A DNA stretch of 64,000 nucleotides from a virus (lineage: Duplodnaviria; Caudoviricetes). Positions within the stretch are counted from its first letter, which is position 1; the number at the start of each line of letters is the position of its first letter. This document shows, piece after piece, positions 7,182 to 32,837 of this stretch. The translations under genes were made by a program, and so were the position numbers. The notes under the pieces are model-generated. The model was not told the origin of the DNA. It saw only the letters and a program-made list of their open reading frames with translations, and made no database searches. The DNA is taken from the IMG/VR virus record IMGVR_UViG_3300020042_007950, positions 1 to 64,000 of that record; one strand, given 5' to 3'.

Positions 7182-9152
7182 ATGTTAGATAACCAAACTC
7201 GTAGGGAGCTTTTATCTAAGGCTCGTCAATCAGGATTTCCAGGAAGTATCTTGGATGTGTTTACTGCTTACGAGCAAGGTAAAGATTTAATTGGGGAATT
7301 CCAACAACAACAGCAGCAACAACAAGGTCAGCAAATGTCTGACATGGCTGCACAGCAATCTGGAATGATGCCTCCTGGGCAACAACCTCTTCCACAAGAA
7401 ATGCCTCAAGCTCCTACAGGGCCACCTCCGGGACTTCAAGGTCAAAGCCTTCCAAGCCCACCACCACCATCTAATCCTAACTTAGTAGACTCAACTCAAC
7501 AACAACCTGTTGGAATGTCAACTAATGCAAAAGGATCTGCAGGTGGGCAAGTGCTAATGGCTACTGGAGGATTTGTAGAAAAGTTTACAGACGACCAATA
7601 CAACAAGTTTAGTTCTCACTTCCCATTTTCTAAGGAACAACGTGGTTCTATTGCTCATAGAGCAACAGTAGAACACCCTGACCTTACAATGGTAAACCCT
7701 AAAAAATATGTATTTGGGGGATTAAAGTATGCATTAGGGGGGAAAGAAGATCCACCAGAAATGCCGTTTGGATTACCTCTTAAAGAACAAAACATATATA
7801 CCCTGCCAGAATATAATCAACCAAAAAATCCTAAAACTGGTGAAATTCTTCCAGATCCACAAAGGCCTAGCTTAGGTATGGGAACTGGTGCTACAGAATA
7901 TAAAATGACAGCAGGGTTTGAAGACGGTGATGTTGATATACCAACTATAGTTGCTGGTCAATATATTGGACAACGTGGTGCAGAAGATAGATACAGACTT
8001 ACCGGAGAAAGGTTTAAAACAATGGCTGACCCTGGAGCTTATAGCAAATTTTATGAGCAAACAGGAAGATTAGGTTTAATGCAAGAAAAAAGAAAAGGAG
8101 GTTTTAAATTTGAAACAGGTGGATTAGAAGGTGACCCACTTAAAAAAGGAAACATAGCTACTGCAGCTGATTCTAGTTATGTGGCTGCAGGTGCTGATGC
8201 ACCACACAATTTTTATAAAAAAGCCGGTTACACAGTTGTGCCTGCAGACCTTTCTAAGGATATCCGACCTTCAGAAATGTTTCAAGCTCTTGCTAACGAA
8301 AGAGAATTCATGTATAACGATCGAAATTCTCGTTCAAGATCGGCAAACTACTCCGACTATACAAATTATAAACCTGGTCAACATAGATTTGAGCAGAGAG
8401 AATTAACTACAGGTAATATAAATCTAAAAGCCCCTAGATCAAAATATGACGATAGAATTTTACCACAAGGCATAGTAACATATGCAGGTACTGGCAAAAA
8501 TGGGGATGTTGCAGAAGTTCCTAAATACGATAAACTTGCTGTAACTCCGTGGAAAGATCTTTCAGATGCAGAAAAATTAAAAAGACTTCAAAAATATGGA
8601 GGTAGTGGAACTCCTTATAAAGATAAAGCAAGTATTAAACAAGGTATTGAAGATTTAAAAAATCCAATGCCTCAACCTAAAATGAAAGAGCCTGGATTAC
8701 TACCTGTTCCAAAAATAGATTTACAGCTACAATTACAAAATACACAATCTCCTTACCAACCAGTAGATAGAGGAGAGTATTTTATAAAACCAAGTGGTAA
8801 CCCTGGTGTAGGAGTAATACACTATAAAAAAGATAACGGAGACGGAACTTATACTACTAAAGTAATTGGCCCATCATTAGCTAGAGATTGGTATAACGAT
8901 GCAGACCAAAAAATATTTGACGATAAAGATCCTAATACACGTGTTGGAGGCAGAGTAGATTATGATCCACGTGACCCAGATCAGAAAATATATCGTGACA
9001 TGCATGATGCTGTAATGGGACTTGAAAAAAATACCTCATCTGTGCAAGACAGTGCACAGGAAAGACTAAGATTAAGAAAAGAAAACGAAGCAAAACAAGG
9101 AGCTATTAAATTTGCTACTGGTGGTAAAAAACTTCTTAAAAAAAGAAAATAA
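7182..9152 (+). CDS. Mosaic putative internal virion/cargo protein with [F/Y]xxGG-delimited modules
   Basis: Gln/Pro-rich N-terminus; YVFGG, YALGG, FETGG, FATGG; lies between portal and scaffold. Function inferred from position. Confidence 0.6.
   Translation: MLDNQTRRELLSKARQSGFPGSILDVFTAYEQGKDLIGEFQQQQQQQQGQQMSDMAAQQSGMMPPGQQPLPQEMPQAPTGPPPGLQGQSLPSPPPPSNPNLVDSTQQQPVGMSTNAKGSAGGQVLMATGGFVEKFTDDQYNKFSSHFPFSKEQRGSIAHRATVEHPDLTMVNPKKYVFGGLKYALGGKEDPPEMPFGLPLKEQNIYTLPEYNQPKNPKTGEILPDPQRPSLGMGTGATEYKMTAGFEDGDVDIPTIVAGQYIGQRGAEDRYRLTGERFKTMADPGAYSKFYEQTGRLGLMQEKRKGGFKFETGGLEGDPLKKGNIATAADSSYVAAGADAPHNFYKKAGYTVVPADLSKDIRPSEMFQALANEREFMYNDRNSRSRSANYSDYTNYKPGQHRFEQRELTTGNINLKAPRSKYDDRILPQGIVTYAGTGKNGDVAEVPKYDKLAVTPWKDLSDAEKLKRLQKYGGSGTPYKDKASIKQGIEDLKNPMPQPKMKEPGLLPVPKIDLQLQLQNTQSPYQPVDRGEYFIKPSGNPGVGVIHYKKDNGDGTYTTKVIGPSLARDWYNDADQKIFDDKDPNTRVGGRVDYDPRDPDQKIYRDMHDAVMGLEKNTSSVQDSAQERLRLRKENEAKQGAIKFATGGKKLLKKRK
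7302..7325 (+). repeat. (CAA/CAG)8 poly-Gln tract
   Basis: caa caa caa cag cag caa caa caa in frame. Confidence 0.8.
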
Positions 9153-9153
9153 C

Positions 9154-11244
9154 ATGGCTAAGAAATTACAAAAAAATACATCAATAGCTAAAGCAAAAAG
9201 TCTTAAAACAAACGTTACTCGTAAGTTTGCTGTCGGTGGGCCAGTAAATTTTGGTCTTGAAAATTTAATAGATCCTGAAAATCCAATTACAACTACAGGA
9301 GGCCCAGCAAAAGATCAATTTTTTCCAGAATATTATAAAGCTAATAAAGAAGTTTTTGACAAAGCTGACTCTGAAGCTAGATCTTGGGGAAATGATTGGT
9401 TTGAAAAAAGAAAACAACTTCCACAATTTACAGACACATCAGATGTATTTTTAAATACGTTTAGGAACTCTGCACCAGCTCAATATTTTACAGAAGAAGC
9501 TTATGATAAAACAAACTACCTTGGTGGAAAAGCACCTAGTTTAGCAACTGCTGCTACACCTGCTCTTTTTGATAATATTCAAACAGGTAATATCCAAGAT
9601 GCTGCAGACGAAGCTTTAAAAAACAATCCTTACTCTTCTCCTAAATTAGAAAAAGGGTACATGAAAACAATAAATGAAGCTGGAGAAAAAGATTATTTAA
9701 ATACAAATTCTGTGTATTATAGAGGGCTAGAAGGAGCAAGGCCTTATGTAGCTTATGAGGAACTTAACCATATTGGTTCAAACATAGCTGGACAAATTCC
9801 TAATAACACTCATGCTGCAGGTATGGAAATACTTGGAAACACTATTACTCCAGATTTAGTAAATAGCATGGGATACAAAGATGTCGATAAAAGCATGGGA
9901 GCTTATTATGCAGACCCAGAAGAATATTACACCAGTCTACAAACTGCTAGAAAAGCCCTTAATTTAGATGCTACAAAAAACTACACTGAAGATGAAATGT
10001 ATGATATTTTAGAATCAGGTAGAACTAAAGGTAAATCTGGGCTTTTTAATAAAGAAAGTGCAGAAGAAGGCCAAATGACAAGATTCTATCAAGCTATTGG
10101 TTATCCTACAGGATCTTCTAAATTTGTAAATGGAAAAAATATTGAAGATCTTACTGGTGACGAACTTGAACAATATAATCAAGCTAAAAGAGACGCAGTT
10201 AAAAGATTTCTAATTACTCACAATGCTGTAGCAGAAAACAAAACAAACACAGAAGATTACGGTCTTCCCAAAGCATCTCGTTATGGTGGATACAAATATA
10301 AGAATGGAGGCCCTAATAAAAAAAAAGAGCCTGAAACTACTCATTACACTGTAGCTAATGGAAAATATATATTTACTCTTCCTGACGGCACAGCTTGGGA
10401 TGCAGGAAGTAAAAAAAGAGCAGAAAACTTAAATAATTATTTTAATAATGGTTGGGGCTGGACAGGTGAAAAAACAGCAGATGGTTCCCCAGCATATAGC
10501 AGATTGCATGATCTAAGTAACAACAGAGAAGAAATACTACCAGAAGTGAATGAATTTATTGCTGAACCAGCACGTGTAGAAGGTGAGTATAAAACTGAAA
10601 TGCAGACTGCAAATGAAGGAGTAATAGTTAGAGTGCACGATAAAAATCAAAGATTTATTAGATGGGAAACTCCTGATGGAAAAATAATTCACATTACCAA
10701 TCCTACTGGAAGCCCAACCTCTGATTTTGATCCTGTCTATAAACCTAAAAGGGATAAAGATATTCAAACAGGTGGAAAAGAGCAAGAGGAAAAACTAAGA
10801 AAAAGAAGAGAAGCAGAGAAAAAGAATGTAGCAGCATTTGAAATGGGTGGAAAAGCAGATCCTGGAAAACGTACCAAAGAACTTAGCACTAGAACTAAAA
10901 CTACAGACCAGAACTATGTCATTAAACAAGACATGTATGATGAGGGAGACTATGACAGTGTTGAAACTAAAACTAGGAGAAGTTTAAAAGGCTTTATTAA
11001 AGGAGCCCCTAAGCCAGAAGCACCGTTTACAAGAAAAATTTCTGGTGAATTTGCAGAAGGAGGAATGAATAAAAACATGCTTAATGCAAACTCTACAACT
11101 GGTCCAAGATCAGAACAGTCTTGGCAAAACCCTGGAGTTAACAGATTCTCAGGTAATACTAATGGTGTAAACGCTGACTATTACTTCAAAAGAGGAGGAT
11201 TAAAGTCAAAAGTTTCTTCAAAATTTGCTAAGTTAAAATTATAG
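9154..11244 (+). CDS. Second mosaic putative internal virion protein (GG-delimited modules, degenerate zincin-like module)
   Basis: ATG at 9154 (TAA-C-ATG) preferred over the TTG at 9112; FAVGG, YKNGG, FEMGG, FAEGG, FKRGG; EELNH...YYADPEE. Confidence 0.6.
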   Translation: MAKKLQKNTSIAKAKSLKTNVTRKFAVGGPVNFGLENLIDPENPITTTGGPAKDQFFPEYYKANKEVFDKADSEARSWGNDWFEKRKQLPQFTDTSDVFLNTFRNSAPAQYFTEEAYDKTNYLGGKAPSLATAATPALFDNIQTGNIQDAADEALKNNPYSSPKLEKGYMKTINEAGEKDYLNTNSVYYRGLEGARPYVAYEELNHIGSNIAGQIPNNTHAAGMEILGNTITPDLVNSMGYKDVDKSMGAYYADPEEYYTSLQTARKALNLDATKNYTEDEMYDILESGRTKGKSGLFNKESAEEGQMTRFYQAIGYPTGSSKFVNGKNIEDLTGDELEQYNQAKRDAVKRFLITHNAVAENKTNTEDYGLPKASRYGGYKYKNGGPNKKKEPETTHYTVANGKYIFTLPDGTAWDAGSKKRAENLNNYFNNGWGWTGEKTADGSPAYSRLHDLSNNREEILPEVNEFIAEPARVEGEYKTEMQTANEGVIVRVHDKNQRFIRWETPDGKIIHITNPTGSPTSDFDPVYKPKRDKDIQTGGKEQEEKLRKRREAEKKNVAAFEMGGKADPGKRTKELSTRTKTTDQNYVIKQDMYDEGDYDSVETKTRRSLKGFIKGAPKPEAPFTRKISGEFAEGGMNKNMLNANSTTGPRSEQSWQNPGVNRFSGNTNGVNADYYFKRGGLKSKVSSKFAKLKL

Positions 11245-11291
11245 CAAGTGCTATACAATAAGTAAAAGTATAAAAGATAAATTTATACTTT
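11240..11291. promoter_or_regulatory. Two inverted repeats upstream of the scaffold-capsid operon
   Basis: TATAGC-AAGT-GCTATA (11240-11255) and the perfect 10-bp AAAGTATAAA-N7-TTTATACTTT (11265-11291). Confidence 0.55.
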
Positions 11292-11310
11292 AAGATTAAA
11301 AGTAAACCAA

Positions 11311-11318
11311 TACCTTTG
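11311..11318 (+). promoter_or_regulatory. -7 box TACCTTTG, 4 nt before the scaffold ATG
   Basis: Exact TAnnTTTG match. Confidence 0.65.
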
Positions 11319-11322
11319 TTAT

Positions 11323-12441
11323 ATGAGTAAACCAGAACAAAAACTTAACTTCTCAGACATCTCTTTCGACGACATGATAGGAGACGGACTGACACCCTCA
11401 GATCCTAAAGAGGATTCTGATAACAACATTGACAATTTAGAAGACGATCCTGAGGAAGACGAGGATGAAGATCCTAATCTTCCTGATGATAATGACTCTG
11501 ATGATGAACCTGGACAAAAGTATAAGTCAGTAAATGACGATAACGATGACGAAGGTGATTTTGATAATGAAGATGGAGACGACTCTATTGGGTCTGTAGC
11601 AGATACAATTGCAAAAGCTTTAGGCTATGAATTGGATGCTGAATATGCAGACACAGAAGAAGGCTTAATCGAATTTACAAAAGACATTGCTCAGAACATT
11701 GCTGAAGAACAACTACAAGAATTATTTGAGCAGTTCCCATTAGTACAAAAGCATCTTGATTTTGTAATGGCTGGTGGGGATCCTGAAAAATTCTTTGATG
11801 CTTACAATCCTACATTAGATTTCAACAGAATTGAAATTGATGCAAGTGATACAAGAACACAGAAAGGAATTGTAGCTGAGTTTTTCAAAAGCAAAGGTCA
11901 CGATAATGAGTTCATCAAAGAAATGCTTGAAGAATTTGAAGACTCTGGAAAACTTTACGATAAAGCTCAACATGCTAAAAAACAATTAGGAGCTATTCAA
12001 GAAAGAGAAAGAGGAATGATGGTTCAACAACAACGTCAACAACAACAATTAGAAGCACAACGTCAACAAGAATTTTGGGAGGATGTGGCTGGACGTATTG
12101 ATGAAGGCAACGAGTTTGCAGGCATCCGTATCCCAGACCGTGAAAAAGCAAAATTCTTTGACTACATCTCTGCACCGGCTAACAAAAATGGCCAAACAAA
12201 GAGAGATATAGATTATGCTCAATCTAATATAGATGTAAAATTAGCCTTGGACTACTTAATGTACAAGGGTTTGAAACTTGAAGATATCATTAATACTAAA
12301 GCTAAATCAGTTAGTACTAGAGGTCTAAGAGATAGAATCCAAGGACACCAAGAACGTGTGAAGAACATGGGTAAAGTAGAAAGAGGAGGAAATAAGAAAT
12401 TTGATCCAGATAGTCTGGACATGAAGAGGCTGTTTGAATAA
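11323..12441 (+). CDS. Putative capsid scaffolding/assembly protein
   Basis: Very acidic N-terminus, helical Gln-rich C-terminal half, immediately upstream of the MCP (conserved crAss-like position). Confidence 0.75.
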   Translation: MSKPEQKLNFSDISFDDMIGDGLTPSDPKEDSDNNIDNLEDDPEEDEDEDPNLPDDNDSDDEPGQKYKSVNDDNDDEGDFDNEDGDDSIGSVADTIAKALGYELDAEYADTEEGLIEFTKDIAQNIAEEQLQELFEQFPLVQKHLDFVMAGGDPEKFFDAYNPTLDFNRIEIDASDTRTQKGIVAEFFKSKGHDNEFIKEMLEEFEDSGKLYDKAQHAKKQLGAIQERERGMMVQQQRQQQQLEAQRQQEFWEDVAGRIDEGNEFAGIRIPDREKAKFFDYISAPANKNGQTKRDIDYAQSNIDVKLALDYLMYKGLKLEDIINTKAKSVSTRGLRDRIQGHQERVKNMGKVERGGNKKFDPDSLDMKRLFE

Positions 12442-12471
12442 AACGCAAATTAACTTTAAAAACTAAGAATC

Positions 12472-13899
12472 ATGTCAGTAATGCAAGTATTAAAAACGTA
12501 CTATAACGATGCACAAATGACCGACACTAACTCGTTGGTTAATGCACTTATGGAACGTCCAGAGGAGTTGTCTCCTATTATTACTCACTTAGCAGGTCGT
12601 GAAGAGAAAAAGTTCCCATTGTCTTTCTTAACAGAAGGTGTTGGAAACACTAAATCTATCGATCGTTTTGAGTATGAGTACCGTGTTAAAACACACGAAA
12701 TCAATGTTCGTCCAGTTATTGCTAATACTGGTACTGGAGCTGCAGGTGCACCGTTCACCTTGACTTTCCCGGACAAATGGTTCGTATTCCCTTACACTTT
12801 GGTTTCTCAATCAGGTGTGTTGGCACGTATCATGGATGAGCCTGTTGTAGATGGTGCTGGATGGAAGTACACTTTGAAGTGTGTTTCTCCTGACCAAACT
12901 GCTGCTTTATCTGCATCAGCTGGTGGAGATATTGCTGCTGGTGCTCTTTGGGGTCAATTGTATGCTAACGTAGGAATCGATTTCTCTCGTGGAAATGCTT
13001 CTAACTGGACTGCTCCAGGATTAGTTCGTTCTAAGATTGGAACAATTCGTAAGTCTTATCACTTCTCTGGAAATGCTAAAGATTACGTTGCACAATTCGA
13101 ACTTCCTTTGAAAGAAGGTAGCAAAACTAAGTTGTGGATGGATTACGAAGAGTACCGTCACATGTTGAAGTTCAAAGAAGAGTGTGAAATGTACTACTGG
13201 TACGGTGCTAAAACTCACGATGCAAATGGTGCTTCTACCATGTTGGATGAGAATGGTCAACCAGTTGTTTCAGGTCCTGGTCTTCTTGAGCAAATTATCA
13301 ACAAAGACACTTACTCTACGTTGACTCAAACTAAACTTGAAGAAACAATTGGAGATTTGTTCTATGGTATGACTGATGCTACAGACAAGCAAGTTACCCT
13401 TTACACTGGTATCGGTGGAGCTCGTGAATTTGACAAAGCACTTCGTACATACTACTCTGGTAGCCCATTCTTACAAACTACTCAACCTAAATTCATCACT
13501 GGATCAGGTCGTAATTTGGGAATCACTGGTTACTTCACTAGCTATGACCACGTTGATGGTTATTCTGTGAACGTAGTTAAATCTCACTTGTTTGATCACG
13601 GTCCAGTTGCTCAAGCTTCTAAGAAGCACCCAGTTTCTGGTCTTCCTATGGAGTCTTACCGTATGGTATTTGTTGACCAATCTACTTATGATGGTGAAAA
13701 CAACCTTCAGATGATCAACAAGAAAGGTCGTGAATTACTTCGTTGGTGTGTTGCAGGTTCAGTTGTTCCGAAAGGATTTACTGGAACTGATGCACGTGCA
13801 AGTGATATTGACGGTGCTTCTGTTCACATGTTGAAGACTGCAGGTATCTTACTTCGTCGTTTCGATACCAGCTTAGATCTACAATGTGTAGCATCGTAA
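12472..13899 (+). CDS. Major capsid protein (crAss-like HK97 fold)
   Basis: 475 aa; IRKSYHFSG, LKFKEECEMYYWYG, GPGLLEQI, LYTGIGGAREFD, FTSYDHVDG; strongly optimised codon usage; followed by a terminator. Confidence 0.92.
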   Translation: MSVMQVLKTYYNDAQMTDTNSLVNALMERPEELSPIITHLAGREEKKFPLSFLTEGVGNTKSIDRFEYEYRVKTHEINVRPVIANTGTGAAGAPFTLTFPDKWFVFPYTLVSQSGVLARIMDEPVVDGAGWKYTLKCVSPDQTAALSASAGGDIAAGALWGQLYANVGIDFSRGNASNWTAPGLVRSKIGTIRKSYHFSGNAKDYVAQFELPLKEGSKTKLWMDYEEYRHMLKFKEECEMYYWYGAKTHDANGASTMLDENGQPVVSGPGLLEQIINKDTYSTLTQTKLEETIGDLFYGMTDATDKQVTLYTGIGGAREFDKALRTYYSGSPFLQTTQPKFITGSGRNLGITGYFTSYDHVDGYSVNVVKSHLFDHGPVAQASKKHPVSGLPMESYRMVFVDQSTYDGENNLQMINKKGRELLRWCVAGSVVPKGFTGTDARASDIDGASVHMLKTAGILLRRFDTSLDLQCVAS

Positions 13900-13917
13900 T
13901 TTGTGTTGGTTTGCACT

Positions 13918-13949
13918 AAAAAAGGGGCAGGTTCTGCCTGCTCCTTTTT
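13918..13949 (+). terminator. Rho-independent terminator after the MCP
   Basis: AAAAAAGGGGCAGG-TTCTG-CCTGCTCCTTTTT stem-loop with U tract. Confidence 0.85.
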
Positions 13950-14012
13950 ATCTTATATAAAAACATGTTAGGTTATTCTTTCCCCTAACGATACAACAAA
14001 AAGAACTACATA

Positions 14013-14816: not shown

Positions 14817-14834
14817 CCAAAACCTAACTAGTCG

Positions 14835-15971: not shown

Positions 15972-16008
15972 TTAAATAATGTGTGTTTAACTCCTAAAAA
16001 TTAAAAAA

Positions 16009-17034: not shown

Positions 17035-17049
17035 TCTTAAACTAAATCT

Positions 17050-17079
17050 AAAAAGTGGGGGAGCAATCCCCTACTTTTT
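17050..17079 (+). terminator. Rho-independent terminator
   Basis: AAAAAGTGGGGGA-GCAA-TCCCCTACTTTTT, GNRA tetraloop plus U tract. Confidence 0.85.
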
Positions 17080-17107
17080 ATTATCTTTACACTTAAATTA
17101 ATCTCCA

Positions 17108-17578: not shown

Positions 17579-17589
17579 AAATATATAAA

Positions 17590-21358: not shown

Positions 21359-22066
21359 ATGACTTTAGATGAAATTTCGTTTAACCTTTTAAATCTATTT
21401 AGAGGTGGCCGTAGCTCACAGGATGAAATGATCTCCTTGGCTCAAATCAAATTTAACGTTAAGCACTATCGTGCTGTATTCATACGTAGAGACTATGCAA
21501 GAAATGGTCTAGTAACTCGTCACTTAGAACAAGACTTAAAATGTGTGCAACTTAAACAAGTTGATTTATCAAAATGTTGCAACATCGATTTAAAATGCCA
21601 AGCTTATAGAAGCATAAAAAAGATCCCAAGAACAGTAAGATTTAACTTTGAAGAAGCCATCACTTACATAGGAGATGTATCAGGATTAGGCCGTATTCAA
21701 ATGATTAAACCATTTGAGGCTAACTACATTTCAGCAGATAAATTTACTGGCAAAAATGCTAAAGCATTTATGATTGAGGACTACTTGTATGTCCTTAATC
21801 CTAACGGTATGTCTACTGTAAACATTCGTGGAATATTTGAAGACCCAGAAGAAGTTGCTGAATTCATTGATTGTGAAGGCCAAGTGTGCTATAGTGGTGC
21901 AAGCCAGTTCCCTATGCCTATGGATATGGTTCAGGGTATTACTCAGGGTATGATGAATGGAGAACTTAGATTGTTGGCTGGAACATTCTCTGACACTAGT
22001 CTTGATCGTGGTCAAGATTTAACTGGAGGAGCACCACAAACTGCACAACAACCTGCTCAAGAATAA
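21359..22066 (+). CDS. Tail ring/connector protein
   Basis: MTLDEI...IRGIFEDPEEV...FPMP.DM..GI pattern of crAss-like ring proteins. Confidence 0.7.
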   Translation: MTLDEISFNLLNLFRGGRSSQDEMISLAQIKFNVKHYRAVFIRRDYARNGLVTRHLEQDLKCVQLKQVDLSKCCNIDLKCQAYRSIKKIPRTVRFNFEEAITYIGDVSGLGRIQMIKPFEANYISADKFTGKNAKAFMIEDYLYVLNPNGMSTVNIRGIFEDPEEVAEFIDCEGQVCYSGASQFPMPMDMVQGITQGMMNGELRLLAGTFSDTSLDRGQDLTGGAPQTAQQPAQE

Positions 22067-22085: not shown

Positions 22086-22090
22086 TGACT

Positions 22091-22351
22091 ATGGCAGCTT
22101 GGCAAAATAAAGAAGGTAAAAATCCAAAAGGAGGTTTAAACGAAAAAGGCAGAAAGTCTTACGAAAAATCTAACCCTGGATCTAACTTAAAAGCTCCTCA
22201 ACCTAAAGGTGGTAGCAGGAGAAACTCATTCTGTTCTAGAATGTGTGGGATGAAAGCCAAACTTACTAGCTCTAAAACAGCAAATGACCCTAACTCAAGA
22301 ATTAACAAATCACTTAGAATCTGGAACTGTGGAAGTTGCAGTAACTGGTAA
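22091..22351 (+). CDS. Small basic phage protein (DUF6321-like)
   Basis: AAWQNKEGKNPKGGLNEKGRKSY...RRNSFCSRM.GMK.KLTS.KTANDPNSRINKSLR.WNC, recognised from memory as a conserved phage family. Confidence 0.7.
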   Translation: MAAWQNKEGKNPKGGLNEKGRKSYEKSNPGSNLKAPQPKGGSRRNSFCSRMCGMKAKLTSSKTANDPNSRINKSLRIWNCGSCSNW

Positions 22352-22362
22352 CAATTAATAAA

Positions 22363-22590
22363 ATGGCTTTTAACATTGACACAACCAAAATAACCGAATA
22401 CGGGGAATGGGCAGGATTAAACGTAGCATGGGCTACAATATCATATGCTATGTTTACAAATAGTATAACTTGGATTATAGGAATAGTCGGAGGTATTACT
22501 TTGATTTGGTTCAACATTGAAAGAGCATTAAAAGCACGACAAGAAAGACAATTACTTAATAAACCAGAAGAAGATGAGCAAAATGATTAA
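22363..22590 (+). CDS. Putative holin
   Basis: 75 aa, two hydrophobic segments, charged C-terminal tail. Confidence 0.55.
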   Translation: MAFNIDTTKITEYGEWAGLNVAWATISYAMFTNSITWIIGIVGGITLIWFNIERALKARQERQLLNKPEEDEQND

Positions 22591-23488
22591 AAGAAAAGAC
22601 GGGTCATACTCTAAAAGAGGGCTTTGGGATAATATAAGAGCTAACAAGGGTTCTGGCAAAGAGCCTACTAAAGAAATGTTAAAACAAGAATCTAAAATAA
22701 AAAAAGAAGAAAACATGAACTCAATGTATAAGAAAGGAGGCAAAGCCCCTAAGAAAAAAATGATGAATAAAGAGTCTTTTCTAGAAGAGTCTAAAGAAAT
22801 GGAGTTTGGAGCTCCAGGAACTAAACCTCCTATGAAGAAAAAAATGATGGGAGGAATGTACAAAAAAGGTGGATTCCCAGATCTTAACGGAGATGGTAAA
22901 ACAACTTTTGCCGATGTTCTTAAAGGAAGAGGTGTAGGAAAAAAGATGATGGGAGGAAAGTATGAAATGGGTGGTCCTGGTGATGGTACTACTACTAGAA
23001 AAAATCTTCTTGGGCAAACTGTAACAGAAAACAGATCAGGTTTAGATTACGATAAAACCGTTACAAGAAAAAACGGTACTGTAGCTAGACAAAGTGGAGT
23101 AAAAACAGATGCTTTTAATCCAGAAACAGGTACTTCAGATACAAACAACTTTTACAGCAAAAAATTTGATAGAGCTGGAAACTTAAAAAGCTCTTCAGCT
23201 AGCAGAGAAAAATACATCCAAGAAGATAAAAATTCAAAAGGTGAATATGACGGTAATTCCGTACCATATGTTTCATCAGCCAAAGCTAATAGAAATGGAA
23301 AAGTTACTCGTGAAAATGGGTATAAAACAGTAGATAATCCTAGCAGATTAACTATTAATGAGTCAAGCTCTTCTTCAAAAAGAGATTTAAAAGAAAAAGC
23401 TAAACAAAGCAGAGCAAGTTTTAAAACTGGAGGAAGCATGTTTGAGACAATGCTTGATAAACTAAAAGTTAAAGGTAAAAAGAAATAA
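22574..23488 (+). CDS. Lys/Met-rich basic protein with repeated YKKGG/KKMMGG motifs and an EF-hand-like loop
   Basis: YKKGG x2, KKMMGG x2, YEMGG, FKTGG; DLNGDGKTTFAD loop. Confidence 0.65.
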   Translation: MSKMIKRKDGSYSKRGLWDNIRANKGSGKEPTKEMLKQESKIKKEENMNSMYKKGGKAPKKKMMNKESFLEESKEMEFGAPGTKPPMKKKMMGGMYKKGGFPDLNGDGKTTFADVLKGRGVGKKMMGGKYEMGGPGDGTTTRKNLLGQTVTENRSGLDYDKTVTRKNGTVARQSGVKTDAFNPETGTSDTNNFYSKKFDRAGNLKSSSASREKYIQEDKNSKGEYDGNSVPYVSSAKANRNGKVTRENGYKTVDNPSRLTINESSSSSKRDLKEKAKQSRASFKTGGSMFETMLDKLKVKGKKK

Positions 23489-23490
23489 AC

Positions 23491-23997: not shown

Positions 23998-23999
23998 TC

Positions 24000-24893: not shown

Positions 24894-24903
24894 TACTAAA
24901 ACT

Positions 24904-27900: not shown

Positions 27901-29760
27901 GAAGCTGCATACGGAGAAGAGATAGGATTTGCAGGTGGAGATATTGATGACGACGATCCTTCTGAAAACACAGGGTCTACTACTGCATATAACTTTAATA
28001 CTGGGGAAAATTTTGTTACAAGCTCAGAAGACATTATAAATATTGACAATTGGAGAGGTGATGGGGAAAACACTGATTGGAATCCACATGCAACTTTACA
28101 TCAAATAATAATAGAATCTGATGACAATATCAACTTCCGGTATTGTGGAGATTCAAAAAAAGGAGTAAGCACAGCTGATAGTATGTACTTTGATAAATAT
28201 ACTGCTACAGATGTATTGTGGAGATCTCCTACACACGACCTTACTAAAAAAGAAAACATACTTTACGAAGATCACTATTCTGCTTTACAGGATATTAGAG
28301 TAGCAATACCTTACCCAAAGAAAGACAAATCTACTAACTTGTTCCCTAATCGTGTAATTAGGTCAATAATACAAGATGGAAACTTTATAGATACTTACCG
28401 TTATTTCTTAGCAATTGATCTTAAAGACTTTGGTCAAAACAAAGGGTCTATTACAAACATCTTTAACTTGAATGCATTGATTTACATTCATACTGAAAAG
28501 AGTTTGTTCAAAACAAAAGGTAAACAAAACCTTGAGTTAGCTGATGCATCTCAGGCATACATCGGTTCAGGTGATTTGTTTGCACAAGAGCCTGATGAGT
28601 TTGTGCAATCTACAGACGGATACATGGGATTAACCAATAAAATGGGAGCCTTAGTAACCAAAGATGGGTACGTGTTTATCTCTAGAAACTCTAGAAAAAT
28701 CTTCTTAATTACAGACAAAGTACAAGATTTAACTGACCTTGGATTATCAACTTGGGCTAGAGAGAATGTACCATTTGCTTTACAAAACTATGGTGCATCT
28801 CTTGCTGGGATAAACCTAGATGCCCCAACAAATAACTTTGGATACCTTGTTACTTATGACCCACTGTTAAAAAGACTTATCATAACTAAACGTGATCTTG
28901 TTCCTACAGCTACATTTGAATCACAACTTGCTGCAGGAAACATCTTAGTCTCTACAGGAGTAGTTGTTGATAAAAATAAAAGACCAATATCTCTTATAGA
29001 AGGGGTTAATTTTAACAAAGGAGGTTGGACAATTTCATTATCTTTAGATACAGGGGCTTGGGCTAGCAGACACTCTTACATACCACCACTTTATGCATTC
29101 AATACTAAAAATCTGTACAGCTTTAATTCAATACCTGCATCAAAGTTTTATGTACATAATGATTATGTTAATCCTGGTAATTTTTATGGTATTGTATTTA
29201 ACTTTGAGTTTGAATTTATATCTACTGGGGATGTATCTACGTCTAAAACGGGGGCTGTTTCAACTACTAAGAGTGATAATAAACTATATTCAGCTGTCAC
29301 TTACTTCTTAGAAACGTATAAAGCAGATGCTAATAACATCTCTAAAGTAACTACAACTCTAAATCCTGGATTCACTAGTTTCTATGTTTACACTACAGAA
29401 CAAATCTCGGGAGTTAGGGATCTAACGTATCTTAAAAACATTAGAAAAGTTGATCACAACTGGATATTTAATGACTTTAGAGATTTGTCAAAAATAAATT
29501 TCAACACAACTTTGGCTCAAAACCAAATCAATGTTAATGGTGACTTTTATACAGGAACGTATGCTCCAGGGGGATCAACTCCTATGTTTACGTCAGAAGG
29601 AATTGTAAATTCTCTTTACTTAGACACAGCCAAACCTTGGTACGAGCAAAGAAAGTTCATAGATAAATTCTTAGGAATACGATTAATTTCTAACAACCGA
29701 GCTCAAAATTTAATAAATTTGTATACAGCTAAAGCTAACTACCGTACTACGAGTAGATAA
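24904..29760 (+). CDS. Muzzle/tail stabilisation (tubular B-like) protein
   Basis: 1618 aa; FLKGMNKD...YRDALN start, YFTDN...NPPR, GGDTYICRY, FAQEP beta-propeller-type motifs. Confidence 0.85.
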   Translation: MASELKFLKGMNKDTGLSDQVDGTYRDALNAVVDINKGAISNEFGNKLVASLPTGYLPVGQIALPDDNFIIFANKAGTPTSTSSIFLVNTSTNVLSALLTTNTGELTGHLNFDIDNPITGEFRVSPTGEIIVYFTDNKYKFTVEPVTKIEYPEYYNPPRVFNVTRQQIFLSTGGTPNKLYTFTGQNITMLNMFMDSGRIPEFNAASIIEGGGVVTGAYYLAVAYADKDFTETNVLGMANPVYVHPSSESYIPFEMIGGAPGGVETNKSIKWDLTSLNIDYKYIVPYVLQKIGEVQFVYKLEFVEIKTTTISITYSGLEQVDKATVEDSVLDKVNYLSAKSIAQLDNRMYAANLTGRKDLGFQRFANGIRLQAVTKNILEFDPRAYDIYNINVGYAAVSKNVDYPFPTDYNYISAVTYLVQNGKDRGYRNINRLFKEKSYRRGEVYSFYISFIFKDGTESYAYHIPGRNVVKSWENGPLNNVDVSGFNPVEFIETNPNGLMYQYLDTSLYVSQSTGYWENRNETYPDSPDFDIYSVDGAGSPVLSGSIRNLNVRHHKMPSNHNLSFSTLVTSIDFSFPTLANSSVSTSAQTKFNENVRILGFKLENLKIPKFILQQVQGYKVYYAKRNQGDKTIIGQSGLHPSEWIKSGNLYNKRQTAMFGPYYHMWQMGALPYSGSFAYTNYPWASTYNDNVAAQSVFKFHDFNLLRTQKSLGQATHIDLQYVATMHQWRGRHKGIQPGNIDGEGNFDSSTYYTQFRSGESEYQWINSTLANTDNYDNTSDDTSVYSTPSAYGLLMVAAKYSPPGASGANDYGVSVAGVTGNQSYLGVNQTIFPLDPDSASYLAGMSILKNSSSTAFKGATYLLNLSGESSIVLGLKSGIPPLRGTNINLLGEDFAFLRKVNVENAQNGPVTTGRPNVYIANLCSTKTDVFEPFDAQRLVWTGFYKSTLLVNIITGGDVDGTNYYTGVRTSDIFGGDTYICRYGYRMTSQRYGFKYFRGEAAYGEEIGFAGGDIDDDDPSENTGSTTAYNFNTGENFVTSSEDIINIDNWRGDGENTDWNPHATLHQIIIESDDNINFRYCGDSKKGVSTADSMYFDKYTATDVLWRSPTHDLTKKENILYEDHYSALQDIRVAIPYPKKDKSTNLFPNRVIRSIIQDGNFIDTYRYFLAIDLKDFGQNKGSITNIFNLNALIYIHTEKSLFKTKGKQNLELADASQAYIGSGDLFAQEPDEFVQSTDGYMGLTNKMGALVTKDGYVFISRNSRKIFLITDKVQDLTDLGLSTWARENVPFALQNYGASLAGINLDAPTNNFGYLVTYDPLLKRLIITKRDLVPTATFESQLAAGNILVSTGVVVDKNKRPISLIEGVNFNKGGWTISLSLDTGAWASRHSYIPPLYAFNTKNLYSFNSIPASKFYVHNDYVNPGNFYGIVFNFEFEFISTGDVSTSKTGAVSTTKSDNKLYSAVTYFLETYKADANNISKVTTTLNPGFTSFYVYTTEQISGVRDLTYLKNIRKVDHNWIFNDFRDLSKINFNTTLAQNQINVNGDFYTGTYAPGGSTPMFTSEGIVNSLYLDTAKPWYEQRKFIDKFLGIRLISNNRAQNLINLYTAKANYRTTSR

Positions 29761-29771
29761 ACCTTACCATT

Positions 29772-32700
29772 ATGGCCAAAAAACTAATTAGTAGACAACA
29801 ACAAAAACCTGCACTAAAGAAAGTTAAGAAGTATTCTTTAGCTGGATATAACTTAAGTGGAGTCTCTCAGGCTCCACAAGCTTCATATTACCTAGGGCAA
29901 TCTGCAGCAGATGAGGCAGGTAAAACTCAAAACGTTGCTTTGCAATCTTTGAAAGAAACTCAAGACGAATTAAAAAAACTTAACGAAGGGCAAAAAGAAC
30001 AGCAAGAAGCTGCTATCAAACAATCTAGTATGGAGCTAAGTAAGCTTGCACTTAATACTGGTAAAGACATTTTTCAAGAAAGAGCAGCAAAGAAAGCTGC
30101 TGAGTTAGCCGCTAGTCAAATTGCTAAGAATACAGCAACTACTGCAACTAAAGAGTTTGGTACAAATGCAATGATAGCTGGAGACGCAGGAGTAGATCTT
30201 GCATCTACTGGAGCTGCTGTAGGAACAACTGCAGCTAAAACAGCTGGATCTTTCATGTCAGGAGTAGCTTCTTACGGCCAGCCTGTATCAGCAGCCTTAG
30301 CTATTGGTGGAGAAATAATTAAGAATACTGGTAGTGATAACAATGCTGCTACTTACACTCAGAAAGAAAGAAACAGATATGGTGTAGGTAACATAATGGC
30401 TAAAACTGGACAGTTTGCTGGATACGGTTCAATGCTTGGACCTGTAGGTACTTTAGTAGGAGCAACTGCTGGACTTGGATATGGTATTTATGATACTGTA
30501 AAAGATAATAAAAAAACAGCAGAAGAAGCAGGCAACCTTGCTATGGCTAATACAGATCCAATGGCTGCAGCTAACAATGCTTTTATTGACAGCAAAATGA
30601 TGGATGCCTACAGAGGTGGGAGTCAAATGGCTCGTTACGGTGGTATGAGTAAGTATGCAATGGGTGGATCAGAATGTCCTCCAGGTACTACTTACAATCC
30701 TGCAACAGGAGCATGTGATCCAGTAGCCCAAGCCACTTCACAATTTAACTACTTTACTACTCCCGCTGCTGCACCTGAAGGAGACAAAGCTTCTGGAGAA
30801 ATGTACAATTCGTTTGACGAGCAAAGTGCTAAAAGACAAGCTAAACAAGAGTACCAGCAAAAGAAACAACAGTACAATATGGATTGGGCAAAAGCCCGTA
30901 GAGTAGATATTGATTCTGCTGATCCTCATACACTTCAAGATAGAATTCCTTATCCACAAATGCCTCTTTCTCCAGCAGAGCAACGTCGTGTAGATGCAGG
31001 AAGAGACCCTGGAACTTTCTTCGATCATTATCAGTCAGATCCTAAACGTCCAGGAACTCGAATGTTAAATAAATTTAACAACGATTTAATGGAAGGAGAT
31101 CAAGACTTAGGCTTTAGACAAGAAAGGCCTGTTGAGGAAGAACAAAGTTCTGGTGGAGGTGGTGTAAGTCTTCGTGGTTTATTTACTAAAAAAAGTAAAG
31201 CCAACCGTGGAGGTGACCACAGCAAAAGACAAACAGGTACAGATTGGTTTCAAAGGCAAATAAATAAACATTGTGAGGAAGTAAGTAAATATGCTGCTGG
31301 TGGAGCAATAGACCCTAACTGCTATGAATTTGGAGGAAGTTATGAAGACCTTGGGGGAACTCGTTATGCACAAGGTGGAAAGATTAAACCTATCCCAAAC
31401 TCTAACGATGTTGAATATGTGGGGAACACCCATGAAGAAGGAGGAATTAAGCTTGATAAATATACTGAAGTAGAAGATAAAGAAACTGGAACTAAGATTA
31501 ACGGAAACCAATACTTCTTCTCTCGTGTATTAAAAACACCAAAAGGAGAGCCGTATTCTCAAGCACATAAAGCTATTGCTTCCAATCCGTCTTTAGACCC
31601 TATTTCAAAAAAAAACATTATAAAAGACTTAGCTCGTCAACAAGAAGAGCAGGCAGGTCGTGATCCTAAACAGATTGCTAGAACTGGTGGTATGCAAGAA
31701 TATGCTGGAGGTGGTAAAAAGAAAGATCCTGTAAAAAAGAAAAAAAGCAAAGATTTTACATATGCAGATATGCAAAATTACGATCTTCCAATAGGCCCTA
31801 CAAATGAGCCTAGCACCGGATTTATGTTAAATGGCCAACTTGTTGAATATAGAATGGATGCTGAGACTGGAGATTATATTAGAGATCCTAAAACAAATCA
31901 ACCTGTACCATTCCCCCTTTCTACAAAAACAGATTTTAAAGTTCAAGATGGTTTAAGACAAGAACTTTTAGATTACAACTTTAGACCTCAAGATAATGGA
32001 GAGCCAGGAAGCCTTCCTAAAGATCCAGAAAGAAAGTTAGATCTAAGTAAAACTTGGTTAGAAGAACATCCTGGGTTCCTTGGAGGATTAGCACAGTTAG
32101 CAGGTCCAGCTTATGCAATGCTTAAACCGTATAAGAAAACAAATGCTATGGCTGCAGCTCAATCTGTAACTGCCCCAAGTCTTGCAAGAGTAGATAAGTC
32201 AGGAGAAATTGAAGATGCACGTCGTCAGCAAAATGCCATGAATACCTACCTAAAGAATACAAACTTAGGTCCTGGTAAAATCATTGCTATGCAAAGTGTA
32301 GCAACTAAAACTGCTGATGAGATTTCTAAAATCTCTTTAAGACAAGATGCTGAAAACAGAGCAATTAAAAACTCAGAAGCACAGATAGCTGCTGAAGTTG
32401 CTGGAAGAAACCAAGCTGCACAACTTGAAACAAGTAAAGCAAACATGATGGCTGATATTAATCAGAACCAATACATGGATGAAAGAAACTTGGGAGTTGC
32501 AGAAGCTCTTGGTAAAGACATTGCTGGGATGTCAATGGATCAACGTAAGCTTGATATGCAATACAGAATTGCAAGAGGTCTAGATAAAACTGGGTCACTT
32601 AACCGTTACGAGATAATGGAGCAATTAAGAAAGCAAGCTAAGAATCCAGAAAGCCCTGTGTACCAAAAATCAGAAGCAGAACTTCAACAAATTGCTTCTG

Positions 32701-32837
32701 ACTTAGGATATAAAGTAGTACAAGTTTTAGCAGATGACAAAGAGGAGAAAAGATTTGGTGGAATGGGTAGAAAATACACATCTCGTCTAGGTGATTTGTC
32801 TACTAAAAGAAATACTACAGCTAAACAATCGATATAA
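29772..32837 (+). CDS. Cargo/ejection protein with glycine-zipper segment and [F/Y]xxGG motifs
   Basis: Follows the muzzle gene; GSMLGPVGTLVGATAGLGYG; YAMGG, YAAGG, YEFGG, YAQGG, YAGGG; GNTHEEGGI...EVE domain. Confidence 0.7.
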   Translation: MAKKLISRQQQKPALKKVKKYSLAGYNLSGVSQAPQASYYLGQSAADEAGKTQNVALQSLKETQDELKKLNEGQKEQQEAAIKQSSMELSKLALNTGKDIFQERAAKKAAELAASQIAKNTATTATKEFGTNAMIAGDAGVDLASTGAAVGTTAAKTAGSFMSGVASYGQPVSAALAIGGEIIKNTGSDNNAATYTQKERNRYGVGNIMAKTGQFAGYGSMLGPVGTLVGATAGLGYGIYDTVKDNKKTAEEAGNLAMANTDPMAAANNAFIDSKMMDAYRGGSQMARYGGMSKYAMGGSECPPGTTYNPATGACDPVAQATSQFNYFTTPAAAPEGDKASGEMYNSFDEQSAKRQAKQEYQQKKQQYNMDWAKARRVDIDSADPHTLQDRIPYPQMPLSPAEQRRVDAGRDPGTFFDHYQSDPKRPGTRMLNKFNNDLMEGDQDLGFRQERPVEEEQSSGGGGVSLRGLFTKKSKANRGGDHSKRQTGTDWFQRQINKHCEEVSKYAAGGAIDPNCYEFGGSYEDLGGTRYAQGGKIKPIPNSNDVEYVGNTHEEGGIKLDKYTEVEDKETGTKINGNQYFFSRVLKTPKGEPYSQAHKAIASNPSLDPISKKNIIKDLARQQEEQAGRDPKQIARTGGMQEYAGGGKKKDPVKKKKSKDFTYADMQNYDLPIGPTNEPSTGFMLNGQLVEYRMDAETGDYIRDPKTNQPVPFPLSTKTDFKVQDGLRQELLDYNFRPQDNGEPGSLPKDPERKLDLSKTWLEEHPGFLGGLAQLAGPAYAMLKPYKKTNAMAAAQSVTAPSLARVDKSGEIEDARRQQNAMNTYLKNTNLGPGKIIAMQSVATKTADEISKISLRQDAENRAIKNSEAQIAAEVAGRNQAAQLETSKANMMADINQNQYMDERNLGVAEALGKDIAGMSMDQRKLDMQYRIARGLDKTGSLNRYEIMEQLRKQAKNPESPVYQKSEAELQQIASDLGYKVVQVLADDKEEKRFGGMGRKYTSRLGDLSTKRNTTAKQSI

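What the first reader, a model, noticed from the sequence alone, without database searches (positions are those of the whole stretch)
7557..32760. A recurrent [F/Y]xxGG signal shared by four unrelated-looking proteins: candidate polyprotein-processing or capsid-loading system
Seen: 18 exact [F/Y]xxGG motifs, usually preceded by K/R or followed by K/M. ORF 7182 has four (7707, 7728, 8109, 9111); ORF 9154 has five (9226, 10297, 10837, 11050, 11185); ORF 22574 has four (22727, 22859, 22961, 23420); ORF 29772 has five (30654, 31290, 31323, 31365, 31701). Variants include MATGG, KKMMGG x2, SRYGG, ARYGG, ARTGG and KRFGG. That is ~2,700 aa, against only about seven scattered matches I saw in the far larger remainder of the proteome. 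The motifs occur near termini and at boundaries between blocks of different character. Known: di-glycine sites are maturation cleavage signals in adenovirus ((M/L/I)xGG-X) and ASFV polyproteins (GG-X), and T4 internal proteins use a short capsid-targeting peptide. No classical prohead protease is recognisable in this head module. Inference: these genes encode cassette-like core polyproteins whose modules are cut apart, or docked into the capsid, via the GG motif. This would let the phage swap in arbitrary payload domains for delivery.
Basis: partly seen in the sequence, partly recalled or inferred. Interest (0 to 1): 0.8.

Follow-up and report, generated by a model that had tools for sequence, protein, structure and literature searches.

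The report
Aromatic-Gly-Gly tag on crassvirus cargo proteins
A short, conserved signal (basic residues, Tyr/Phe, two residues, Gly-Gly) marks the ends and internal junctions of the swappable internal "cargo" proteins of a freshwater crAss-like phage and its relatives. It probably helps build these proteins into the virus particle, but nothing here shows that it is a protease cutting site.

Summary
All 18 [F/Y]xxGG motifs sit at the stated coordinates in four ORFs (2,691 aa, about 1.9 expected). The other 23,558 aa of the 82-kb phage genome hold nine. An aromatic residue lies exactly 3 residues before GG at 17 of 39 GG runs (p=8e-10). Shuffles that keep local composition never reach 18 (0/5000).

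The motif is conserved across relatives:
- 358 copies against 27 expected in 120 homologues of ORF 22574.
- 50 against 8 in the hypervariable proteins of the portal-to-capsid-gene slot.
- 113 against 34 in the slot of cargo protein C1.
- Also present in crAss001 gp45 and p-crAssphage gp47/gp48.

It ends basic N-terminal leaders, precedes short basic C-terminal tails, and marks junctions where genes are split or fused in relatives. ORF 29772 is a C1 homologue.

Cutting is unproven:
- No GG-type protease was found.
- Pro follows GG at 10-17% of sites.
- The one copy that maps onto a solved structure (7QOG) is an ordered, uncut hairpin at the edge of the portal-bound domain.

My best reading is an assembly or docking tag (0.38). 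A proteolytic processing site is the main rival (0.28). No paper found describes the motif.

The parts
7182..9152 (+). ORF 7182 (656 aa), a hypervariable protein of the portal-to-MCP slot. It has a conserved N-terminal ~45-aa domain (7182-7316), a Q/P-rich linker, four motifs (7707-7721, 7728-7742, 8109-8123, 9111-9125) and a basic tail KKLLKKRK (9126-9149).
   Evidence: No Pfam or PHROG hit. In alignment A4, N4, R7, L11, G18 and G179/G180 are nearly invariant.
9154..11244 (+). ORF 9154 (696 aa from the ATG). It has a basic N-terminal leader ending RKFAVGG (9154-9240), further motifs at 10297-10311, 10837-10851, 11050-11064 and 11185-11199, and a basic tail LKSKVSSKFAKLKL (11200-11241).
   Evidence: Homology to L001/L002 is 96.7% over aa 1-393 and then breaks at the YKYKNGG motif. 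The Atlas model has low confidence, pLDDT 0.49.
22574..23488 (+). ORF 22574 (304 aa; 17.8% Lys, 11.8% Gly), lying between the ring-protein genes R2 and R1. Motifs at 22727-22741, 22859-22873, 22961-22975 and 23420-23434, plus two KKMMGG variants. The C-terminal tail is 23435-23485.
   Evidence: Among 120 listed homologues (650 at E<=0.001) there are 358 motifs against 26.6 expected; many end ...KKKMMGGKKC.
29772..32837 (+). ORF 29772 (1021 aa), a homologue of crassvirus cargo protein C1 (crAss001 gp45). It has a degenerate leader motif KKYSLAG (29832-29846) and motifs at 30654-30668, 31290-31304, 31323-31337, 31365-31379 and 31701-31715.
   Evidence: Synteny R1 - muzzle-sized ORF - this ORF. 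hhalign to gp45 gives 91.6% (central domain) and 96.5% (C-terminal part). Alignment A1 has G528, G529, G535 and G536 invariant.
31359..31676 (+). [quoted passage not shown] Its first beta-hairpin is RYAQGG-KIKP, with GG at the turn. The C-side motif (RTGGMQEYAGGG) is predicted to be disordered.
   Evidence: AF2 model mf266e996cdbe has pLDDT 78, and about 90 across the domain. The VIA-align top hit is 7qog_M: Z 8.7, rmsd 3.4, 92 residues aligned, model 30..134 = chain 425..548, next hit Z 5.0.
11323..12441 (+). Gene directly upstream of the MCP gene (372 aa): an acidic, disordered N-terminus followed by an all-helical body. It is a likely scaffolding protein and a candidate partner for the basic leaders and tails. 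It does not look like a protease.
   Evidence: Alignment A2 of 35 sequences. AF2 model: all helices, residues 22-89 disordered. Only an unnamed PHROG matches.
4529..6745 (+). Portal protein, a candidate docking partner. In crAss001 the C1 domain binds the portal wing.
   Evidence: PHROG portal hit, E 5e-119; Bayfield et al. 2023, PMC10172136.
42567..42581 (+). HEAYH (HExxH) signature near the N-terminus of the 2501-aa packaged giant protein. This and the site below are the only protease-like signatures in the genome.
   Evidence: Regex scan. No Pfam support was obtained, and this 2501-aa ORF was not itself submitted to Pfam.
50634..50648 (+). HEFGH (HExxH) signature in the 1578-aa packaged protein. 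The phi14:2 gp65 counterparts are described as carrying a zincin-like domain.
   Evidence: Regex scan; Drobysheva et al. preprint 10.1101/2020.03.07.982082. No Pfam hit.

Best explanation
The motif, with consensus [KR]-[KR]-[YF]-x-x-G-G-[LFKP]-K, is a conserved short linear signal that belongs to the internal (cargo or ejection) proteins of crassviruses. It is ancestral to cargo protein C1. In this freshwater lineage it has spread to three further internal proteins.

Each cargo module carries it at its ends:
- a K/R-rich N-terminal leader that ends in YxxGG;
- a C-terminal [YFM](xx)GG followed by a few basic residues.
When modules are fused into one gene, the two end signals lie back to back, as in xYGG-x-x-KYxxGG.

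I think it most likely works uncut, as an assembly tag. The GG pair nucleates a small beta-hairpin that presents an aromatic and basic face. This hairpin would tether each module to the portal, core or scaffold complex, or to neighbouring cargo and DNA. The module would then be built into the procapsid and held in order for ejection. Because the tag is self-contained, payload domains such as peptidoglycan hydrolases can be exchanged freely.

Shown: the enrichment, the conservation, the positions at ends and junctions, the C1 homology, and the hairpin with its ordered, uncut state at one site.
Inferred: the binding function and the partner.
For: 1. The signal is real and specific.
2. It is conserved in otherwise non-alignable proteins in the same genomic slots. 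Counts are 50 vs 7.9 (portal-MCP slot), 358 vs 26.6 (ORF 22574 family), 113 vs 34 (C1 slot) and 72 vs 12.6 (pre-R1 slot). Neighbouring genes are at expectation, 57 vs 55.7.
3. It also occurs in crAss001 gp45 and p-crAssphage gp47/gp48.
4. Stand-alone ORFs start with basic leaders ending KYxxGG. C1 halves in relatives end ...KYGGLKKYI*, and p-crAssphage gp48 ends ...YRCGGHRR*. The motif is therefore kept 3-9 residues from a natural C-terminus, where cutting would achieve little.
5. Fission points align to residue ~295 of ORF 29772, exactly at ARYGGMSKYAMGG.
6. Homology breakpoints lie within 15 aa of a motif in 21.6% of cases, against 6.8% at random and a maximum of 12.3% in 2000 trials.
7. RYAQGG is predicted to be a beta-hairpin turn at the start of the portal-bound domain. 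That domain matches 7qog_M from residue 425, and the gp45 sequence there reads A425-F-G-G-W.
8. Pro is over-represented directly after GG, at 10-17% of sites.
9. The likely scaffold has a long acidic disordered region that could bind the basic flanks.
Against: - No binding was tested, because multimer modelling was not available.
- Only one of the many copies maps onto an experimental structure. The other gp45 copies (around residues 17, 205-210, 259-264 and 558-563) lie just outside the resolved segments, which fits disorder as well as cleavage.
- The giant polymerase-associated proteins are certainly packaged yet lack any enrichment, so the tag cannot be the general loading signal.
- End-of-leader and junction positions are also what a protease site would show.
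Confidence: 0.38

Rival explanations
1. The motifs are proteolytic maturation sites. Leaders, tails and modules are cut at or next to them during assembly or after ejection. The enzyme would be a packaged zincin domain of the giant cargo proteins or a host peptidase. The products would be separate cargo pieces and small basic peptides.
For: - The positions (leader ends, module junctions, just before terminal tails) mirror known viral propeptide layouts.
- A C2 homologue in one relative carries an extra 13-aa leader ending KYQYGG in front of what is the N-terminus in other phages.
- HExxH signatures occur in two packaged giant proteins, and the literature speculates that such zincins process crassvirus cargo (PMC5512222).
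- P22 ejection protein gp7 loses a 20-aa leader to the host zincin OpdA, cut at ...SYPE|KGGKGG.
- In crAss001 both resolved gp45 segments (214-245 in the tail, 425-552 at the portal) are bracketed by motifs.
- My peptide-mass matching of the 2018 MALDI peak lists found no gp45 in the 70-100 kDa bands, although the portal, which has a similar copy number, is seen. This is weak evidence.
Against: - Pfam found no peptidase family in any ORF searched across the 82-kb genome, and PHROGs found none in the nine head-module proteins it was run on. The 2501-aa ORF 42255 was not searched.
- The HExxH sites have no family support.
- Pro directly follows GG at 10-17% of sites, including several leaders.
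- The gp45 sequence reads A425-F-G-G-W at the first residue matched in 7qog_M, and the paper describes 425-552 as one resolved domain, so that GG is not cut.
- Natural C-termini only 3 residues after GG (HRR*, KKC*) leave little reason for a cut.
Confidence: 0.28
2. The motif is an intrinsic physical element with no specific partner. It would be a hairpin or hinge 'sticker' (aromatic, Lys and Gly) in disordered basic proteins. Such stickers would let them bind and condense DNA, or self-associate into the dense cargo mass, and pass through the tail unfolded.
For: - The four proteins are largely low-complexity and K/G/Q/P-rich, and they model poorly.
- ORF 22574 has no recognisable modules to separate, yet carries 3-5 copies in most homologues.
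- GG turns flanked by K and an aromatic recall the nucleic-acid-binding RGG/YGG regions of other proteins (my own knowledge, not tested).
Against: - The spacing is strict: the aromatic sits exactly at -3.
- The positions at leaders, tails and junctions are stereotyped.
- The motif is conserved over very distant C1 proteins.
All three point to a specific recognition event rather than generic stickiness.
Confidence: 0.2
3. The motif is mainly a by-product of module shuffling. Conserved junction peptides would persist because recombination between them swaps cassettes, as proposed for conserved boxes in T-even tail-fibre genes (my own knowledge).
For: Homology breaks cluster at motifs, and the slot is extremely mosaic.
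Against: - Codons differ freely between copies.
- A 15-nt patch is too short for homologous exchange.
- The motif also sits at true N- and C-termini and inside the conserved C1 protein, where no shuffling is needed.
Confidence: 0.08
4. Chance, or composition alone.
For: The four proteins are Gly- and Lys-rich.
Against: Local-composition shuffles reach 18 in 0 of 5000 trials. The -3 position is specific at p=8e-10. The enrichment is replicated in hundreds of homologues.
Confidence: 0.01

Closest known systems
Cargo protein C1 of crassviruses (PhicrAss001 gp45; Bayfield et al. 2023, PMC10172136; PDB 7QOG chain M)
   Same: ORF 29772 occupies the same slot, after ring protein R1 and the muzzle-sized ORF. 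Its central domain matches the portal-bound fragment of gp45, and its C-terminal part is homologous. gp45 itself has the basic leader ending FDTGG, and motifs bracket both of its resolved segments.
   Different: The paper does not describe the motif: 'glycine', 'cleav' and 'proteol' do not occur in its text. In this phage the motif also occurs in three further proteins that have no crAss001 counterpart.
Di-glycine maturation sites of adenovirus ((M/I/L)xGG-X, adenain) and ASFV polyproteins (GG-X, pS273R). Stated from established knowledge.
   Same: A GG pair lies at the ends of basic core-protein precursors, with short basic N- and C-terminal peptides beyond it.
   Different: No clan CE protease was detected. 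The hydrophobic position is aromatic and one residue further from GG. Pro often follows GG. Cleavage is not shown, and one site is uncut in a solved homologue.
Capsid-targeting sequence of T4 internal proteins, and prohead-protease propeptides of phiKZ/SPN3US-type phages (PMC9026906, PMC10052503 listed; otherwise established knowledge)
   Same: Short N-terminal signals that direct otherwise unrelated payload proteins into the head and allow foreign payloads.
   Different: Those signals are cut after Glu by an identifiable prohead protease, and they occur once per protein at the N-terminus. Here no such protease is found, and the signal also lies internally and at C-termini.
P22 ejection protein gp7 leader, removed by host oligopeptidase OpdA (annotation of NC_002371.2)
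   Same: An ejection protein of a podovirus has a ~20-aa basic leader next to ...Y-P-E-K-G-G, and processing is by a zincin not encoded in the head module.
   Different: The cut is before KGG, not after GG. It is a single site, there is no sequence homology, and the host is unrelated.
Polyvalent proteins with zincin-like metallopeptidase domains (Iyer et al. 2017, PMC5512222)
   Same: Virion-delivered, mosaic multi-domain proteins with rapidly exchanged effector domains, including cell-wall hydrolases, and proposed self-processing.
   Different: The four proteins carry no metallopeptidase domain themselves. That paper defines no junction motif ('glycine' and 'linker' do not occur in it).
Encapsulin cargo-loading peptides (established knowledge; reviews PMC7355545 and PMC8346489 listed)
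   Same: Short Gly-containing peptides at the termini, or in disordered regions, of unrelated cargo proteins dock them inside an HK97-fold shell without cleavage.
   Different: The consensus is different, no homology is known, and binding to the crassvirus shell is untested.

Membership tests
Crassvirus cargo protein C1 (crAss001 gp45 family), for ORF 29772 | Gene lies directly after ring protein R1 and the muzzle gene, and before C2 and the giant polymerase-associated genes | tested here: met
   ORF 24000 matches Pfam CrAss_Ring_1 (E 3e-58) and ORF 21359 matches CrAss_Ring_2. They are followed by the 1618-aa ORF, then ORF 29772, then the 760-aa, 2366-aa and 2501-aa ORFs.
Crassvirus cargo protein C1 (crAss001 gp45 family), for ORF 29772 | Central domain homologous to the portal-bound domain (gp45 residues 425-552) | tested here: met
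   hhalign of A3 against gp45 gives probability 91.6% and E 8e-7 over residues 439-547. The AF2 model against 7qog_M gives Z 8.7, with the next hit at 5.0.
Crassvirus cargo protein C1 (crAss001 gp45 family), for ORF 29772 | Present in virions, bound to the portal and the tail barrel | not testable with these tools
   Needs virion proteomics or cryo-EM of this uncultured phage.
Viral di-glycine protease maturation (adenain / ASFV pS273R type) | A clan CE (or other GG-specific) cysteine protease is encoded | tested here: inconclusive
   Pfam (E<=0.01) gave no peptidase family in any ORF searched across the genome, and PHROGs gave none in the nine head-module proteins it was run on. ORF 42255 and ORFs under ~90-100 aa were not searched. 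A very divergent or host-encoded enzyme cannot be excluded.
Viral di-glycine protease maturation (adenain / ASFV pS273R type) | Site consensus with M/I/L two residues before GG, and a cleavable residue after GG | tested here: not met
   The enriched position is F/Y three residues before GG, and no other offset is enriched. Pro follows GG at 10-17% of sites.
Viral di-glycine protease maturation (adenain / ASFV pS273R type) | Precursors are cut at the sites in mature particles | tested here: inconclusive
   One homologous site is continuous in 7QOG. gp45 was not seen at its full-length size in the 2018 MALDI bands, but this is weak and bands 11-13 are not held. The other sites are untested.
T4-type capsid-targeting sequence | Single N-terminal signal removed by a prohead protease (gp21 family) | tested here: not met
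   No prohead protease was detected, and the gene before the MCP is helical and scaffold-like. The motif is also internal and C-terminal, and occurs in multiple copies.
Double-glycine leader peptides (C39 peptidase/ABC exporter substrates) | N-terminal 15-30-aa leader ending in GG | tested here: met
   Leaders such as MAKKLQKNTSIAKAKSLKTNVTRKFAVGG and MFRKKFIDRLRDKYQTGG.
Double-glycine leader peptides (C39 peptidase/ABC exporter substrates) | Acidic/hydrophobic LSxxELxxIxGG-type leader and an associated C39 exporter | tested here: not met
   The leaders are strongly basic, with an aromatic at -3. No C39 or ABC gene was found in the phage. The consensus is stated from established knowledge.
Polyvalent proteins (Iyer et al. 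2017) | Several effector domains plus, typically, a zincin metallopeptidase in one polypeptide | tested here: not met
   The four proteins have no Pfam domain. Relatives of the slot proteins carry single cell-wall enzyme domains. HExxH occurs only in separate giant proteins.

The most novel reading that the evidence does not exclude
A crassvirus-wide 'plug-and-play' cargo system. In this reading the basic-leader/[YF]xxGG tag is the universal address label read by one virion component: the portal wing, the scaffold, or the packaged zincin that then trims it. Any protein flanked by the tag would be loaded into the capsid or tail cargo zones and delivered into the host. That would explain how these phages exchange payload enzymes so fast, and it would give a handle for loading foreign proteins into crassvirus particles.
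Probability: 0.22. Interest if true: 0.8.

Novelty: new variant of a known kind. Interest (0 to 1): 0.55.

Why it matters
How crassviruses select, store and order about 5 MDa of cargo protein is an open question raised by the crAss001 structure. That includes how one protein, C1, comes to lie both in the tail and in the capsid.

A conserved tag that brackets both resolved C1 segments and marks every module end turns this question into specific experiments in a culturable phage. One can look for new termini at five named gp45 sites, and one can mutate the tag or transplant it.

The motif also gives a simple sequence handle for recognising internal or ejected proteins in the many unannotated environmental crAss-like genomes. 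It further shows that a hypervariable gene slot beside the portal gene carries exchangeable cell-wall enzymes.

Tried and rejected
- Pfam and PHROG scans of the four proteins gave nothing.
- tblastn of ORF 29772, of the N-terminal part of ORF 7182 and of ORF 22574 against GenBank phages found no match.
- phmmer of ORF 29772 and a profile of A3 against PDB sequences found nothing useful.
- Foldseek against PDB missed the crAss001 chain. VIA-align found it.
- The protein Atlas search with ORF 9154 gave only weak, unnamed viral clusters and a poor model.
- I tested whether the gene before the MCP is a hidden prohead protease. It is all-helical with an acidic disordered N-terminus, so I rejected that idea.
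- A DNA-level element (recombination or regulatory site) was rejected because the codons vary.
- Literature searches for a description of the motif, or of proteolysis of crassvirus cargo, found none. The Bayfield supplement held as text has no peptide data.
- For the 2018 MALDI peak lists, peptide-mass matching reproduced sensible band identities but could not settle the state of gp45. Bands 11-13 are not stored, and minor components of mixed bands are easily missed.
- A Ubl-like idea (a short extension after GG removed so the protein can be conjugated) was considered and dropped. No E1-, E2- or JAB-like genes and no beta-grasp domain were seen.


Full report
**What the window is.** The window is the first 64 kb of an 82,323-bp phage genome with direct terminal repeats. 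It is a very divergent crAss-like phage.
- The MCP (12472-13899) matches Pfam Crass_capsid but is only about 29% identical to any GenBank crassvirus.
- Large terminase and portal are at 2478 and 4529.
- Ring proteins R2 and R1 are at 21359 and 24000.
- They are followed by a muzzle-sized 1618-aa ORF, then ORF 29772, a 760-aa ORF and three giant ORFs.

- The four ORFs (2,691 aa) hold 18, against about 1.9 expected. The other 23,558 aa of the genome hold 9.
- The enrichment is not a composition effect. Shuffling within 15-40-residue blocks never reaches 18 (0/5000, mean about 2.4).
- Of 39 GG runs, 17 have F/Y exactly three residues upstream (p=8e-10). No other offset is enriched, and K/R is enriched at -4.
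- Codons vary between copies, so the signal is in the protein.

**It is conserved where nothing else is.** I fetched 158 related loci from IMG/VR around the MCP and R1 genes.
- The stretch between the DUF5856 gene and the gene before the MCP is hypervariable, even among phages whose MCPs are 84-99% identical. BLAST finds only the first 40-130 residues of ORF 7182 in most relatives.
- The 31 distinct proteins of that slot still carry 50 motifs against 7.9 expected. The logo is [KR][KR][YF][AK][TKN]GG[LFP]K.
- Fifteen of those 50 lie 7-22 residues from the C-terminus, ahead of a conserved basic tail such as GGKKCYTCNSSKLKVLYNKANYKK or GGLKNRVLYNKAKYKR.
- The ORF 22574 family (650 proteins at E<=0.001, all unnamed) has 358 motifs against 26.6 expected in the 120 listed members. 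Many end KKKMMGGKKC.
- Across loci with R1 identity down to 45%, the C1 slot has 113 against 34 and the slot before R1 has 72 against 12.6. The muzzle (104 vs 74.6), R1 (4 vs 3.3) and upstream genes (57 vs 55.7) are near expectation.

**What the four proteins are.** ORF 29772 is a homologue of crAss001 cargo protein C1 (gp45).
- The synteny matches.
- Profile comparison gives 91.6% for the central domain and 96.5% for a C-terminal block.
- An AF2 model of residues 500-652 (pLDDT 78) has as its clear top structural match chain M of 7QOG, the portal-bound gp45 fragment (Z 8.7; model 30-134 = chain 425-548; next hit Z 5.0).

ORFs 7182 and 9154 are slot proteins. They have a conserved ~45-aa N-terminal domain, a Q/P-rich linker and exchangeable bodies. 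In relatives the bodies include DUF192 (6 members), glucosaminidase, phage lysozyme and YkuD domains. That suggests virion-delivered cell-wall enzymes. ORF 22574 is a Lys/Gly-rich protein between R2 and R1 with no crAss001 counterpart.

**The motif marks module ends.**
- Many stand-alone ORFs in relatives begin with a K/R-rich leader of 10-30 residues ending KYxxGG. Examples are MAKKLKKLTKKYAAGG, MFRKKFIDRLRDKYQTGG and MKKKLKTKYLAGG. crAss001 gp45 starts MAKKKIKRRGKMPPNIFDTGG and ORF 9154 starts MAKKLQKNTSIAKAKSLKTNVTRKFAVGG.
- In distant relatives C1 is split into two genes. The first ends ...AKYGGLKKYI* or ...MLGGLRMGIPRYGN*, and the second starts with a leader plus KYQ[ST]GG.
- The first halves align up to residue 295 of ORF 29772, exactly at ARYGGMSKYAMGG. 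The tandem form seen at several junctions is therefore a C-terminal signal abutting an N-terminal one.
- p-crAssphage shows the same pattern. gp48 ends NVYRCGGHRR*, and gp47 has three motifs and ends KLGGKQSCR*.
- In the slot proteins, homology breakpoints lie within 15 aa of a motif in 21.6% of cases. Random placement gives 6.8%, with a maximum of 12.3% in 2000 trials. A conserved island will tend to end BLAST alignments, so this figure is supportive rather than independent.

**Evidence bearing on cleavage.**

For:
- The layout resembles viral propeptides.
- Two packaged giant proteins carry HExxH, and crassvirus gp65-type proteins are said to have a zincin domain that might process cargo (PMC5512222).
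- P22 gp7 loses a 20-aa leader to the host zincin OpdA next to a KGGKGG stretch.
- In crAss001 both resolved gp45 segments are bracketed by motifs: FSAYGG 205-210 and AFAEGG 259-264 around helix 214-245, and NAFGG 424-428 and MFAYGG 558-563 around 425-552.
- My peptide-mass matching of the 2018 MALDI peak lists assigns bands 3-9 to gp47, gp49+gp44, gp20, gp26+gp22, gp22+gp25, gp25 and gp23. It finds no gp45 at 70-100 kDa.

Against:
- Pfam found no peptidase family in any ORF searched, and PHROGs found none in the head-module proteins it was run on.
- The gene before the MCP is a helical, acidic, scaffold-like protein.
- Pro directly follows GG at 10-17% of sites, including leaders.
- Natural C-termini lie only three residues after GG.
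- The copy at the start of the portal-bound domain is predicted to be a beta-hairpin with GG at the turn. The homologous crAss001 segment is described as one resolved domain, and its sequence reads A425-F-G-G-W.

**Conclusion.**
- The cassette idea is supported.
- The cutting idea is neither shown nor excluded, and it is contradicted at one site.
- I favour an uncut assembly or docking tag (0.38) over a processing site (0.28), a generic sticker or hinge (0.20) and a recombination by-product (0.08).
- Virion N-terminomics on crAss001 would decide between the first two.

Noticed in passing
window 7182-11244, and the same slot in L001-L080: The stretch between the DUF5856 gene and the scaffold-like gene is a hypervariable cassette slot with one or two ORFs of 114-1048 aa. 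Relatives carry peptidoglycan-active domains there (Phage_lysozyme, Glucosaminidase, YkuD) or DUF192. crAss001 has its tail-fibre and lysis genes, including an L,D-carboxypeptidase, in the equivalent place.
   Followed up: partly
window 11323-12441: The gene before the MCP gene encodes an all-helical protein with a ~90-residue acidic, disordered N-terminus and a 50-residue helix. It is probably the crassvirus scaffolding protein, occupying the position of crAss001 gp31 and p-crAssphage gp75.
   Followed up: partly
window 22880-22915: ORF 22574 contains DLNGDGKTTFAD, a DxNxDG loop like an EF-hand or dockerin calcium-binding loop, directly after a motif.
   Followed up: no
window ~22091-22354 and ~22365-22570: Two small ORFs lie between R2 and ORF 22574. 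One is a conserved ~87-aa basic, Cys-rich protein (ends ...WNCGSCSNW). The other is a small protein with one hydrophobic helix. Homologues of the first (~88 aa) recur in relatives.
   Followed up: no
window 42567-42581 and 50634-50648: HEAYH and HEFGH (HExxH) signatures occur in two packaged giant proteins. The second was scanned against Pfam without a hit; the 2501-aa protein was not scanned.
   Followed up: partly
window 6745-7170: A DUF5856 protein (PHROG name: starvation-inducible regulator, DNA-binding-protein-like) is encoded directly after the portal gene and is conserved in nearly all relatives.
   Followed up: no
C-termini of slot proteins in L012, L034, L038, L039, L049, L061 and others: The conserved tail after GG contains CYTC, a Cys-x-x-Cys pair, followed by basic residues. 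ORF 22574 homologues often end in a single Cys (GGKKC). This hints at disulfide or metal links inside the particle.
   Followed up: no
window 9112 vs 9154: The ORF list starts this gene at TTG 9112, overlapping ORF 7182. The ATG at 9154, one base after the stop codon of ORF 7182, gives the MAKKL leader shared with C1 proteins and is the likelier start.
   Followed up: partly
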